DNA from: the human T2T-CHM13v2.0 reference genome, Homo sapiens
Length of the DNA: 64,000 nt
Assembly (NCBI RefSeq): GCF_009914755.1
Contig: NC_060930.1
Reading direction: 5' to 3' (one strand)
Below the pieces are notes generated by a model. It saw only the letters and a program-made list of their open reading frames with translations. It was not told the DNA's origin and ran no database searches. A program made the translations under genes and the position numbers. Below, piece by piece: positions 22,747 to 34,018 of this stretch. The first letter of the stretch is position 1. Every line of letters begins with the position of its first letter.

Positions 22747-25700
22747 TTTTTTTTTATACTTTAAGTTTTAGGGTACATGTACACAACGTGCAGGTTTGTT
22801 ACATATATATACATGTGCCATGTTGGTATGCTGCACCCATTAACTCGTCATTTAACATTAGTTATATCTCCTAATGCCATCCCTCCCCCCTCCCCCCACC
22901 CCACAACAGGCCCCGGTGTGTGATGTTCCCCTTCCCGTGTCCATGTGTTCTCATTGTTCAATTCCCACCTATGAGTGAGAACATGCGGTGTTTGGTTTTT
23001 TGTCCTTGCGATAGTTTGCTGAGAATGCTGGTTTCCAGCTTCATCCATATCCCTGCAAAGGACATGAACTCATCATTTTTTTATGGCTGCATAGTATTCC
23101 ATGGTGTATATGTGCCACATTTTCTTAATCCACTCTATCATTGTTGGACATTTGGGCTGGTTCCAAGACTTTGCTATTGTGAATACTGCCTCAGTGAACA
23201 TATGTGTGCATGTGTCTTTATAGCAGCATGATTTATAATCCTTTGGGTGTATACCCAGTAATGGGATGGCTGGGTCAAATGGTATTTCTAGTTCTAGATC
23301 CCTGAAGAATTGCCACACTGACTTCCACAATGTTCGAAGTAGTTTACAGTCCCACCAACAGTGTAAAGTGTTCCTATTTCTCCACATCCTCTCCAGCACC
23401 TGTTGTTTCCTGACTTTTTAATGATCGCCATTCTAACTAGTGTGAGATGGTATCTCATTGTGGTTTTTATTTGCATTTCTCTGATGGCCACTGATGATGA
23501 ACATTTTTTCATGTGTCTTTTGGCTGCATAAATGTCTTCTTTTGAGAAGTGTCTATTCATATCCTTTGCCCACTTGTTGATGGGGTTGTTTGTTTTTTTC
23601 TTGTAAATTTGTTTGAGTTCATTGTAGATTCTGGATATTAGCCCTTTGTCAGATAAGTAGGTTGCGAAAATTTTCTCCCATACTGTAGGTTGCCTGTTCA
23701 CTCTGATGGTAGTTTCTTTTGCTGTGCAGAAGCTCTTTAGTTTAATTAGATCCCATTTGTTAATTTTGGCTTTTGTTGCCATTGCTTTTGGTGTTTTAGA
23801 CATGAAGTCCTTGCCCATGCCTATGTCCTGAATGGTAATGCCTAGGTTTTCTTCTAGGGTTTTTATGGTTTTAGGTCTAACATTTAAGTCTTTAATCCAT
23901 CTTGAATTAATTTTTGTATAAGGTGTAAGGAAGGGATCCAGTTTCAGCTTTCTACATATGGCTAGCCAGTTCTCCCAGCACCATTTATTAAATAGGGAAT
24001 CCTTTCCCCATTGCTTGTTTTTGTCAGGTTCGTCAAAGATCAGATAGTTGTAGATATGTGGCATTATTTCTGAGGGCTCTGTTCTGTTCCATTGGTCCAT
24101 ATCTATGTTTTGCTACCAGTACCATGCTGTTTTGGTTACTGTAGCCTTGTAGTATAGTTTGAAGTCAGGTAGCATGATGCCTCCAGCTTTGTTCTTTTGG
24201 CTTAGGATTGTCTTGGCAATGTGGGCTCTTTTTTGGTTCCATATGAACTTTAAAGTAGTTTTTCCAATTCTGTGAAGAAAGTCATTGGTAGCTTGATGGG
24301 GATGGCATTGAATCTATAAATTACCTTGGGCAGTATGGCCATTTTCACAATATTGATTCTTCCTACCCATGAGCATGGAATGTTCTTCCATTTGTTTGTA
24401 TCCTCTTTTATGTCATTGAGCAGTGGTTTGTAGTTCTCCTTGAAGAGGTCCTTCACATCCCTTGTAAGTTGGATTCCTAGGTATTTTATTCTCTTTGAAG
24501 CAATTGTGAATGGGAGTTCACTCATGATTTGGCTTTCTGTTTGTCTGTTATTGGTGTATAAGAATGCTTGTGATTTTTGTACATTGATTTTGTATGCTGA
24601 GACTTTGCTGAAGTTGCTTATCAGCTTAAGGAGATTTTGGGCTGAGACAATGGGGTTTTCTAAATATACAATTATGTCACCTGCAAACAGGGACAATTTG
24701 ACTTCCTCTTTTCCTTATTGAATACCCTTTATTTTTTTCTCCTGCCTGAGTGCCCTGTCCAGAACTTCCAACACTATGTTGAATAGGAGTAGTGAGAGAG
24801 GACATTCCCGTCTTGTGCCAGTTTTCAAAGGGAATGCTTCCAGTTTTTGTCCATTCAGTATGATATTGGCTGTGGGTTTGTCATAAATAGCTGTTATTAT
24901 TTTGAGATATGTCCCATCAAAACCTAATTTATTGTGAGTTTTTAGCATGAAGCGCTGTTGAATTTTGTCAAAGGCCTTTTCTGCATCTATTGAGATAATC
25001 ATGTGGTTTTTGTCGTTGGTTCTGTTTATATGCTGGATTACATTTATTGATTTGCATATGTTGAACCAGCCTTGCATCCCAGGGATGAAGCCCACTTGAT
25101 CATGGTGGATAAGCTTTTTGATGTGCTGCTGGATTCGGTTTGCTAGTATTTTATTGAGAATTTTTGCACCGATGTTCATCAGGAATATTGGTCTAAAATT
25201 CTCTTTTTTTGTTGTGTCTCTGCCCAGCTTTGGTATCAGGAAGATGCTGGCCTCATAAAATGAGTTAGAGAGGATTCTGTCTTTTTCTATTGATTGGAAA
25301 AGTTTCAGAAGGAATGGTACCAGGTCCTCCTTGTACCTCTGGTAGAATGCATCTGTGAATCCATCTGGTCCTGGACTTTTTTTGGTTGGTAAGCTATTAA
25401 TTATTGCCTCAATTTCAGAGCCTGTTATCGGTCTATTCAGAGATTCAACTTCTTCCTGGTTTAGTCTTGGGAGAGTGTATGTGTTGAGGAATTTATCCCT
25501 TTCTTCCAGATTTTCTAGTTTATTTGCATAGAGGTGTTTATAGTATTCTCTGATGGTAGTTTGTATTTCTGTGGGATCGATGGTGATATCCCCTCTATCA
25601 TTTTTTATTGCATCTATTTGATTCTTCTCTCTTTTCTTCTTTATTAGTCTTGCTGGTGGTCTATCAATTTTGTTGATCTTTTCAAAAACCCAGTTCCTGG

Positions 25701-31100: not shown

Positions 31101-34018
31101 AGACTAATAAAGAAGAAAAGAGAGAAGAATCAAATAGACACAATAAAATGTGAGAAAGGGGATATCACCATCGATCCCACAGAAATACATACTACCATCA
31201 GAGAATACTATAAACACCTCCACGCAAATAAACTAGAAAATCTAGAAGAAATGGATAAATTCCTGGATACACACACCCTACCAAGACTAATCCAGGAAGA
31301 AGTTGAATCCCTAAATAGACCAATAACAGGTTCTGAAATTGAGGCAGTAATTAATAGCCTACCAACCAAAAAAAGTCCAGGACCAGATGGATTCACAGAC
31401 GAATTCTACCAGAGGTACAAAGAGGAGTTGGTACCATTCCTTCTGAAACTATTCCAATCAATAGAAAAAGATGGAATCCTCCCTAATTCATTTTATGAGG
31501 CCAGCATCATCCTGATACCAAAGTCTGGCAGAGACACAACAAAAAAAGAGAATTTTAGACCAATATTCCTGATGAACATCAATGCAAAAATCCTCAATAA
31601 AATACTAGCAAACTGAATCCAGCAGCACATCAAAAAGCTTATCCACCACAATTAAGTTGGCTTCATCCCTGGGATGCAAGGCTGGTTCAACATATGCAAA
31701 TCAATAAATGTAATTCATCATATAAACAGAACCAAAGGAAAAAAAATACATGATTATCTCAATAGCTGCAGAAAAGTCTTTTGACAAAATTCAACAGAGC
31801 TTCATGCTAAAAACTCTCAATAAACTAAGTATTGATGGGATGTATCTCAAAATAATAAGAGCTATTTATGACAAACCCACAGCCAATATCATACTGAATG
31901 GACAAAAACTGGAAGCATTCCCTTTGAAAACTGGCACAAGACAGGGATGCCCTCTCTCACCACTCCTATTCAACATAGTGTTGGAAGTTCTGGACAGGGC
32001 ACTCAGGCAGGAGAAAGAAAGAAAGGGTATTCAATAAGGAAAAGAGGAAGTCAAATTGTCCCTGTTTGCAGGTGACATGATTGTATATTTAGAAAACCCC
32101 ATCGTCTCAGCCTAAAATCTCCTTAAGCTGATAAGCAACTTCAGCAAAGTCTCAGCATACAAAATCAATGTGCCAAAATCACAAGCATTCTTATACACCA
32201 ATAACAGACAAACAGAGAGCCAAATCAAGAGTGAACTCCCACTCACAATTGCTTCAAAGAGAATAAAATACCTAGGAATTCAACTTACAAGGGATGTGAA
32301 GGACCTCTTCAAGGAGAACTACAAACCACTGCTCAACGAAATAAAAGAGGACAGAAACAAATGGAAGAACATTCCGTGCTCATGGATAGGAAGAATCTGT
32401 ATCATGAAAATGGCCATACTGCCCAAGATAATTTATAGATTCAATGCCATCCCCATCAAGCTACCAATGACTTTCTTCACAGAATTTGAAAAAACTACTT
32501 TAAAGTTCATATGGAACCAAAAAAGAGCCCGCATTGCCAAGACAATCCTAAACCAAAAGAACAAAGCTGGAGGCATCATGCTACCTGACTTCAAACTATA
32601 CTACAAGGCTACAGTAACCAAAACAGCATGGTACTGGTAGCAAAACATAGATATAGACCAATGGAACAGAATAGAGCCCTTGGAAATAATACCACACATC
32701 TAAAACCATCTGATCTTTGACAAACCTGACGAAAACAAGCAATGGGGAAAGGATTCCCTATTTAATAAATGGTGCTGGGAGAACTGGCTAGCCATATGTA
32801 GAAAGCTGAAACTGGATCCCTTCCTTACACCTTATACAAAAATTAATTCAAGATGGATTAAAGACTTAAATGTTAGACCTAAAACCATAAAAACCCTAGA
32901 AGAAAACCTAGGCATTACCATTCAGGACATAGGCATGGGCAAGGACTTCATGTCTAAAACACCAAAAGCAAAGGCAACAAAAGCCAAAATTGACAAATAG
33001 GATCTAATTAAACTAAAGAGCTTCTGCACAGCAAAAGAAACTACCATCAGAGTGAACAGGCAACCTACAGAATGGGAGAAAATTTTTACAATCTACTCAT
33101 CTGACAAAGGGCTAATATCCAGAATCTACAAAGAACTTTAACAAATTTACAAGAAAAAATCAAACAACCCCATCAAAAAGTGGGCAAAGGACATGAACAG
33201 ACACTTTCCAAAAGAAGACATTTATGCAGCCAACAAACACATGAAAAAATGCTCATCATTACTGATCATCAGAGAAATGCAAATCAAAACCACAATGAGA
33301 TACCATCTCACACCAGTTAGAATGGGAATCATTAAAAAGTCAGGAAACAACAGGTGCTGGAGAGGATGTGGAGAAATAGGAAAGCTTTTACACTGTTGGT
33401 GGGACTGTAAACTAGTTCAACCATTGTGGAAGACAGTGTGGCAATTCCTCAAGGATCTAGAACTAGAAATACCATTTGACCCAGCCATCCCATTACTGGG
33501 TATACACCCAAAGGATTATAAATCATGCTGCTATAAAGACACATGCACACATATGTTCACTGAGGCAGTATTCACAATAGCAAAGTCTTGGAACCAGCCC
33601 AAATGTCCAACAATGATAGAGTGGATTAAGAAAATGTGGCACATATACAGCATGGAATACTATGCAGCCATAAAAAAGGATGATTTCTTGTCCTTTGTAG
33701 GGACATGGATGAAGCTGGAAACCATCATTCTGAGCAAACTATTGCAAGGACAGAAAACTAAACACTGCATGTTCTCACTCACAGGTGGGAAGTGAACAAT
33801 GAGAACACTTGGACACAGGGTGGGTAACATCACACACTGGGGCCTGTCGTGGGGTGGGGGAAGGGGGGAGGGATAGCATTAGGAGATAAACCTAATGTAA
33901 ATGACGAGTTAAGGGGTACAGCACACCAACATGGCACATGTATACATATGTAATAAACCTGCACATTGTGCACATGTACCCTAGAACTTAAAGTATAAAA
34001 AAATAAAAAAGAAAAAAA
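28146..34018 (+). mobile_element. Near full-length L1PA (L1PA4/5-like), inactive, deletion in ORF1 at about 29838
   Basis: 5' UTR, ORF1 fragments, ORF2 start MTGSNSHITILTLNVNGLN at 29960, RT and C-terminal fragments, 3' UTR and A-tail; multiple stops. Confidence 0.97.

What the first reader, a model, noticed from the sequence alone, without database searches (positions are those of the whole stretch)
22747..34018. Head-to-head L1PA pair homogenised by gene conversion
Seen: two inverted L1s only 433 bp apart, with different 5' and 3' UTR variants and different deletions. They nevertheless share perfectly identical tracts (23105-23301 vs 33453-33649; about 23782-24021 vs 32732-32971) next to clearly divergent sequence. 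They also share non-consensus changes: [42 protein letters not shown], and two premature ORF2 stops (KGIQ* caataagg; WYW* tggtagcaaaacatag). Inference: shared inactivating mutations cannot come from an active source element, so post-insertion ectopic conversion between the arms is the likely cause.
Basis: partly seen in the sequence, partly recalled or inferred. Interest (0 to 1): 0.7.

Follow-up and report, generated by a model that had tools for sequence, protein, structure and literature searches.

The report
Inverted L1 neighbours that swap sequence
Two dead LINE-1 jumping genes sitting back to back in an intron of human LGSN share patches of identical sequence and private mutations, most likely because they copied short stretches onto each other after landing; this is a known kind of DNA repair, shown unusually cleanly here because one copy carries a tag that points to its likely parent on chromosome 11.

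Summary
Observation confirmed; interpretation supported and extended. Two head-to-head L1s (A, 22747-27712, minus; B, 28146-34041, plus) each have their own target-site duplication and belong to different subfamilies. They share identical runs of 240 and 197 bp amid 8-10% divergence, and 13 alleles seen in none of 34-37 other L1 copies (control pairs: mean 0.2-0.3, maximum 3-5). The parent lacks 11 of the 13 shared alleles, including one stop codon, so B did not inherit them. Transfer appears to have gone both ways and at different times, and only in distal ORF2; the closer 5' halves (12% divergent) show no sign of it. Caveats: the 240-bp tract has no private allele and lies in a slowly evolving region; the WYW* stop also occurs in 2 unrelated copies; apes and reads were not available. 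A second inverted pair on chr7 shows the same signature (1 of 3 pairs checked). This is ectopic gene conversion between neighbouring repeats: a known process, a clean new example, no demonstrated function.

The parts
22747..27712 (-). Arm A: L1 with full 5' end, L1PA4-like (subfamily name recalled from 3' UTR diagnostics), ORF2 broken
   Evidence: groups with the younger panel copies at 16 of 23 diagnostic sites
22736..22751 (.). Arm A target-site duplication, 3' copy (13 of 16 match to 27714-27729)
   Evidence: read from the sequence
27714..27729 (.). Arm A target-site duplication, 5' copy, at a TT/AAAA-type site
25760..25761 (-). Junction of a 1170-bp internal deletion in A (end of ORF1 to past the start of ORF2; L031 2734-3903), blunt, no microhomology
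27730..27934 (.). Pre-existing target DNA between the two insertion sites (205 bp)
27935..27949 (+). Arm B target-site duplication, 5' copy (15 of 15 match to 34042-34056)
27950..27950 (+). Single extra G, matching neither target nor parent; likely copy of the RNA cap
   Evidence: cap reading from PMC4859970 passage
27951..28145 (+). 5' transduction of 195 bp from upstream of the parent L1 (G000:C11 about 94254906-94261240, locus L031); a multi-copy DNA-transposon-like fragment (Tigger3-like, name recalled) ending in the parent's own TSD
   Evidence: 8 differences in 196 columns; 1 of 39 other scored hits spans the junction
28146..34041 (+). Arm B: L1 with poly(A) tail, L1PA5-like (name recalled), sister to L031 in the tree (support 0.947)
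29838..29847 (+). Junction of a 276-bp deletion in B's ORF1 (L031 2492-2767) with 8 extra bases; overlaps A's deletion by 34 homologous bases
23105..23301 (-). Tract 1 in A: 197 bp identical to 33453-33649, 7 rare shared alleles; likely A to B
33453..33649 (+). Tract 1 in B; differs from the parent at 18 of 194 sites
23782..24021 (-). Tract 2 in A: 240 bp identical to 32732-32971, no private allele, three younger-lineage alleles; likely A to B
32732..32971 (+). Tract 2 in B; 9 differences from the parent
24082..24909 (-). Older, partly re-diverged zone in A (32 differences in 829 columns, 6 rare shared alleles) paired with 31843-32671; holds both shared stops (24716/32036, 24113/32640); at least partly B to A
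31843..32671 (+). Older converted zone in B
34018..34026 (+). 9 bases between two A-runs matching the parent's 3' TSD at 8 of 9; possible very short 3' transduction (weak)
   Evidence: pattern described in PMC4859970
34042..34056 (+). Arm B target-site duplication, 3' copy

Best explanation
Two independently inserted L1 elements of different subfamilies lie head to head and share patchy identical tracts and private mutations, most likely through repeated non-allelic gene conversion between the arms after insertion, probably in both directions. Shown: separate TSDs, different subfamily alleles, B's link to a chr11 element by a 5' transduction, and shared alleles absent from that element and from the panel. 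Inferred: a break or stalled fork in one arm is repaired from the other arm 5-11 kb away (intrachromatid fold-back or sister chromatid), copying a few hundred bases without net crossover. Exchange is confined to distal ORF2, where the subfamilies were most alike; the more divergent 5' UTR/ORF1 and the 1.4-kb mismatch made by the two deletions likely block it. At least one older episode (31843-32671) and one or two recent ones (the perfect tracts) are needed. No selected function is implied.
For: 13 shared alleles in 0 of 29 panel copies against mean 0.32, max 5, in 464 control pairs; with 37 copies plus the parent counted, 10 against max 3 in the other 779 pairs. 9 of 13 are transversions and 1 of 13 is at a CpG. 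Tract 1 has no other scored genomic match above 96% (40 of 3801 candidates scored). Parent L031 lacks 11 of 13 and carries 2 (31607, 32002), which A also has. In tract 2 both arms carry alleles (32740, 32781, 32915) that the parent and 8, 8 and 7 of 8 old-type copies lack. Segments: 0 of 240, 0 of 197, 32 of 829 differences against 75 of 851, 37 of 481, 35 of 348. 5' halves: 201 of 1647 differ, 2 rare shared alleles (six-copy panel). Conversion between neighbouring Alus within about 10 kb is reported (PMC6598467, PMC8230782 passages).
Against: No ape orthologue, second human haplotype or read was available. Panels are small and chosen by similarity to the arms (40 scored of about 28000 candidates per search). 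Tract 2 has no private allele and one control pair of 342 has a longer run. Direction of tract 1 rests on one diagnostic site (33610) plus parent divergence. B-to-A rests on three sites (31607, 32002, 32542): three other old-type alleles in A are also in A's nearest relative L008, and the parent lacks two of them. The parent is locally rearranged near the WYW* stop, so its state there is uncertain. Two rare alleles are shared by A and the parent but not B (23491, 23335), which is unexplained beyond homoplasy.
Confidence: 0.9

Rival explanations
1. Repeated inversion (an even number of crossovers between the arms) with conversion at each crossover produced the mosaic.
For: Inverted L1 pairs above 90% identity flank human inversions, some recurrent (preprint 10.1101/2021.12.20.472354 passages; PMC3961182; PMC2603318). 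This pair is 94% identical over 3 kb.
Against: Both TSD pairs are in their original pairing and B's 5' tag and 3' half both match the same parent, so the net orientation is ancestral. Double crossover predicts reciprocally swapped blocks; only 2 isolated sites of 23 show A old/B young, and the parent sides with B at both.
Confidence: 0.12
2. Assembly or polishing mixed the two arms.
For: Perfect identity over 197 and 240 bp between near repeats; reads not seen.
Against: Rare shared alleles also sit in zones with 4-9% differences, transfer appears two-way, and a chr7 pair shows the same pattern. The 11-kb structure is shorter than typical long reads (own knowledge).
Confidence: 0.03
3. The shared alleles were inherited from a common source lineage or are subfamily diagnostics, with no exchange.
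For: Tract 2 alleles exist in other copies; WYW*, MIEW and RPIFLMN recur elsewhere.
Against: B's likely parent lacks 11 of 13 private shared alleles; A and B fall in different clades and differ at 17 of 23 diagnostic sites; B and the parent share their own private alleles.
Confidence: 0.03
4. A third, younger L1 (genomic or cDNA) donated tract 2 to one arm, which then passed it to the other.
For: Tract 2 has no private mutation and differs by 1-2 bases from three other copies.
Against: The region is slowly evolving (A-like copies differ by as few as 3-5), those three copies were picked for similarity, and several young-subfamily alleles in the tract are absent from both arms. It still needs arm-to-arm transfer.
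Confidence: 0.07

Closest known systems
Non-allelic gene conversion between neighbouring Alu elements (Aleshin and Zhi 2010, seen only as cited in PMC6598467 and PMC8230782)
   Same: Neighbouring retrotransposon copies within about 10 kb share non-diagnostic mutations; partial, mosaic replacement.
   Different: Here the copies are 5-6 kb L1s in inverted orientation, with several tracts of different age and a traced parent giving polarity.
Arm-to-arm conversion in sex-chromosome palindromes (search listing only: PMC3723533, PMC8981503)
   Same: Inverted arms around a short spacer exchange sequence.
   Different: Those arms are duplications kept above 99% identity; these are two independent insertions at 88-94%, autosomal, and only patchily converted.
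L1-flanked (retrotransposon recombination-mediated) inversions (PMC2603318, PMC9675761, PMC3961182, preprint 10.1101/2021.12.20.472354; passages)
   Same: Same substrate: inverted L1PA pair above 90% identity.
   Different: No net inversion in this assembly; the outcome is non-crossover transfer.
L1 5' transduction (PMC4859970, PMC13174262; passages and, for the latter, a supplement search)
   Same: Upstream DNA of the source copied in front of a full 5' end, inside one TSD, with an extra G.
   Different: Unspliced, 195 bp, from a repeat fragment directly upstream; the source element is still present. The 2016 review says only a handful were reported; the 2026 paper lists 17 with unique RNA, mostly spliced exons.

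Membership tests
Non-allelic gene conversion | Paralogues of independent origin | tested here: met
   Separate TSDs, different clades, different 3' flanks
Non-allelic gene conversion | Clustered identity beyond chance | tested here: met
   0 of 20000 permutations; segments at 0%, 3.9% and 8-10%
Non-allelic gene conversion | Shared derived alleles absent from outgroups and from the source | tested here: met
   13 absent from the panel, 11 of them absent from L031
Non-allelic gene conversion | Non-reciprocal transfer (donor unchanged) | tested here: inconclusive
   No reciprocal blocks at 23 diagnostic sites, but sites are sparse and pre-event states need ape orthologues
Non-allelic gene conversion | Lineage-specific tracts in orthologues | not testable with these tools
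   No relatives held for this genome
L1 5' transduction | Extra 5' DNA inside the TSD pair | tested here: met
   15 of 15 TSD at 27935-27949 and 34042-34056
L1 5' transduction | Extra DNA lies directly upstream of a source L1 elsewhere | tested here: met
   L031 matches across the junction, has its own TSD, and its host repeat continues on both sides
L1 5' transduction | Daughter shares private alleles with the source | tested here: met
   Six alleles in B and L031 at 0 of 29 panel copies, two of them also in A; sister grouping 0.947
L1 5' transduction | Upstream transcription start | tested here: inconclusive
   One extra G at 27950 fits a capped 5' end; a truncated longer transcript or a later point mutation is not excluded
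L1-mediated inversion | Chimeric arms and flipped spacer | tested here: not met
   TSD pairing and 5'/3' affinities are unswapped in this assembly
Segmental-duplication palindrome | Arms are one duplicated segment extending beyond the repeat | tested here: not met
   Similarity ends at the L1 ends; arms differ in subfamily
L1PA4 / L1PA5 subfamilies | Match to curated consensus | not testable with these tools
   No repeat library held; names rest on recalled 3' UTR diagnostics and on clustering

The most novel reading that the evidence does not exclude
Closely spaced inverted L1PA pairs in the human genome routinely undergo repeated two-way concerted evolution in their most similar ORF2 stretch, which blurs L1 dating and subfamily calls and builds the 200-bp-plus perfect matches that would later seed inversions; the newest tracts here may be human-specific or still polymorphic. 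The chr7 pair (14 private shared alleles, patchy identity) is a second case found without looking for it.
Probability: 0.45. Interest if true: 0.6.

Novelty: new member of a known kind. Interest (0 to 1): 0.38.

Why it matters
It is a natural experiment with a parent control: the 5' tag identifies B's likely source, so conversion tracts can be polarised from one genome. It shows that old, dead L1s about 6-12% apart still exchange sequence when close and inverted, and that identity, not distance, seems to set where. If general, it matters for dating L1s and for predicting which pairs become inversion-prone. It also adds one traceable old L1 5' transduction, a rarely reported event. No effect on LGSN or on any phenotype is shown.

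Tried and rejected
Subfamily-diagnostic and common-source explanations: rejected. Inverted duplication of one element: rejected by separate TSDs and clades. Net inversion: rejected for this assembly. Splicing as the cause of A's deletion: the junction does not fall on splice dinucleotides (read by eye). A single event making both deletions: they overlap by 34 homologous bases, suggestive but not testable. Long runs as proof by themselves: weak for tract 2. Two of three other inverted neighbour pairs showed no clear signal: chrX 0 private shared alleles in 501 columns, chr4 2 in 1843. Literature: nine full-text searches found no paper on this locus or on conversion between neighbouring inverted L1s; the library lacks most subscription papers and Aleshin and Zhi 2010 was not held. 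Supplement searches used GRCh38 coordinates estimated from memory (about chr6:63.36 Mb): no row in PMC9675761 file 4 or in PMC13174262's six files; the PMC2603318 search was uninformative because no 'chr6' string occurs in the held text. The inversion table of the Porubsky preprint could not be seen and may list this locus. Earlier scan findings were not available.
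Full report
Observation. A self-comparison of the window gives two inverted blocks: 22749-25760 with 34003-30990 at 93.8% and 26003-27704 with 29838-28154 at 85.5%. Shuffling the 154 differences over 2703 columns never gave runs as long as the two best (0 of 20000); on the 1053 polymorphic columns alone 7 and 0 of 20000. All eight peptide motifs are in both arms; five are in none of the other 38 sequences, while MIEW, RPIFLMN and WYW* recur in one, one and two.

Anatomy. 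Arm A runs 27712 to 22747 on the minus strand with a 16-bp TSD (13 matches) and lacks 1170 bp from late ORF1 into ORF2. Arm B starts at 28146, lacks 276 bp of ORF1 and ends in an A-rich tail at 34041. B's TSD is not at the L1 5' end: an exact 15-mer lies at 27935-27949 and 34042-34056. Between it and the L1 are one G and 195 bp. A genome search with this junction scored 40 of 4267 candidates: the window itself, 38 that match only the first 195 bp or less at 79-86% (a dispersed repeat; I recall it as Tigger3-like), and one, on C11, that matches all 280 bp at 93%. That locus (L031) is a near full-length L1 inserted in the same repeat, with its own TSD and the repeat continuing behind it. The transduced piece differs from it at 8 of 196 columns, and the G matches neither target nor source. 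B and L031 are sisters in a tree of 32 ORF2 sequences (support 0.947) and share six alleles seen in 0 of 29 panel copies. So B is a 5'-transducing daughter of the chr11 element (inferred, high confidence). A review describes untemplated Gs as cap copies and L1 5' transductions as rare (PMC4859970, passages).

Independent origin. At 23 sites that separate six older from ten younger panel copies, A has the younger and B the older allele at 15. In the 5' half A is 7-8% from its three best relatives and 13% from B. The same chr1 element is A's best 5' match and a near 3' relative, so A is one coherent element. I label A L1PA4-like and B L1PA5-like from recalled 3' UTR diagnostics; no repeat library was available.

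Test of exchange. Against 29 copies, A and B share 13 alleles seen in no other; 464 control pairs average 0.32, maximum 5. Adding eight copies chosen for similarity to A or to tract 2 removed one (32781) and, over the slightly wider span, 13 remain at 0 of 34-37; counting the parent among the others, A/B share 10 and no other of 779 pairs more than 3. Nine of the 13 are transversions and one is at a CpG. The parent lacks 11 of them, including the KGIQ* stop, and has two (31607, 32002) that A also has. Hence material moved between the arms after B landed. Direction: tract 2 carries three younger-lineage alleles absent from the parent and from 7-8 of 8 old copies (A to B); tract 1 has the younger allele at its single diagnostic site and is 9.3% from the parent against about 7% elsewhere (A to B, moderate support); 31607, 32002 and 32542 indicate B to A in the older zone. 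Results against: other old-type alleles in A are also in its relative L008, the parent is rearranged near the second stop, and two rare alleles join A with the parent but not B.

Timing and extent. Segmentation gives 0 of 240, 0 of 197, an 829-column zone at 3.9%, and flanks at 7.7-10% (the 3.9% zone appears only at the lower penalties). Zero differences bound the two tracts at about 1.3-1.5% (95%, three-event rule, my arithmetic), that is within roughly the last fifth of the pair's history; they could postdate the human-chimpanzee split but this is untested. The 5' halves, though closest together, differ at 201 of 1647 sites with two rare shared C-to-T alleles and no run above 35 bp: no sign of conversion. 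I infer that identity limits the exchange. Tract 2 alone is weak evidence: one of 342 control pairs has a 255-bp run and a chr2 copy differs by one base. Tract 1 is strong: seven rare alleles, next best match 96%.

A second case. Among the 40 scored matches to tract 2 were three more neighbouring pairs in opposite orientation. The chr7 pair (L047/L048, about 20 kb apart, head to head, unrelated 3' flanks) shares 14 private alleles in 2997 columns with patchy identity (6 of 10000 permutations); the chr4 pair shares 2 in 1843 and the chrX pair 0 in 501. The chr7 copies are of the same subfamily type, so common parentage is not excluded there; their TSDs and 5' flanks were not checked.

Mechanism. 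Shown: two independent insertions, patchy identity, shared alleles not inherited from B's likely parent, unswapped orientation. Inferred: homology-directed repair using the inverted neighbour, without net crossover, several times and both ways (0.9). Inversion toggling with conversion at crossovers remains possible (0.12) because inverted L1 pairs above 90% identity flank human inversions (passages), but no reciprocal block was seen.

Known or new. Conversion between neighbouring Alus within about 10 kb is in print (PMC6598467, PMC8230782; passages), as are palindrome arm conversion (listing) and L1 5' transduction. Nine searches found no report on this locus or on neighbouring inverted L1 conversion, within a library that lacks most subscription papers; one relevant inversion table could not be seen. 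Verdict: real, well supported, a new member of a known kind, made more useful by the parent tag and by a second pair. No function shown. Interest 0.38.

Noticed in passing
   Followed up: yes
L047 (G000:C7:66694000-66697200) and L048 (G000:C7:66674900-66678100): Second head-to-head L1 pair with 14 private shared alleles, a 221-bp identical run and unrelated 3' flanks; likely another converted pair.
   Followed up: partly
window 25760/25761 and 29838-29847: The internal deletions of the two arms abut at homologous positions, overlapping by 34 bases; chance or a shared hairpin-related origin is undecided.
   Followed up: partly
window 34018-34026: Nine bases inside B's A-tail resemble the parent's 3' TSD (8 of 9), possibly a minimal 3' transduction.
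   Followed up: partly
L031 about 5500-5590: The chr11 parent has a small local duplication/inversion in ORF2 and many frameshifts; it is now dead.
   Followed up: no
window 56033-56800 and 3440-4084: Two closely spaced inverted Alu-like pairs (self-alignments at about 74-75%); 56493-56798 is 92% identical to the inverted copy at 58792-59093, higher than other Alu pairs in the window.
   Followed up: no
window 22747-34041: The pair lies in an LGSN intron (hub annotation); if transcribed it could fold into a multi-kilobase double-stranded RNA. Not tested.
   Followed up: no
L049 2082-2234 and L040 1479-1861: Two fetched copies have an internal orientation switch typical of 5'-inverted L1 insertions.
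   Followed up: no
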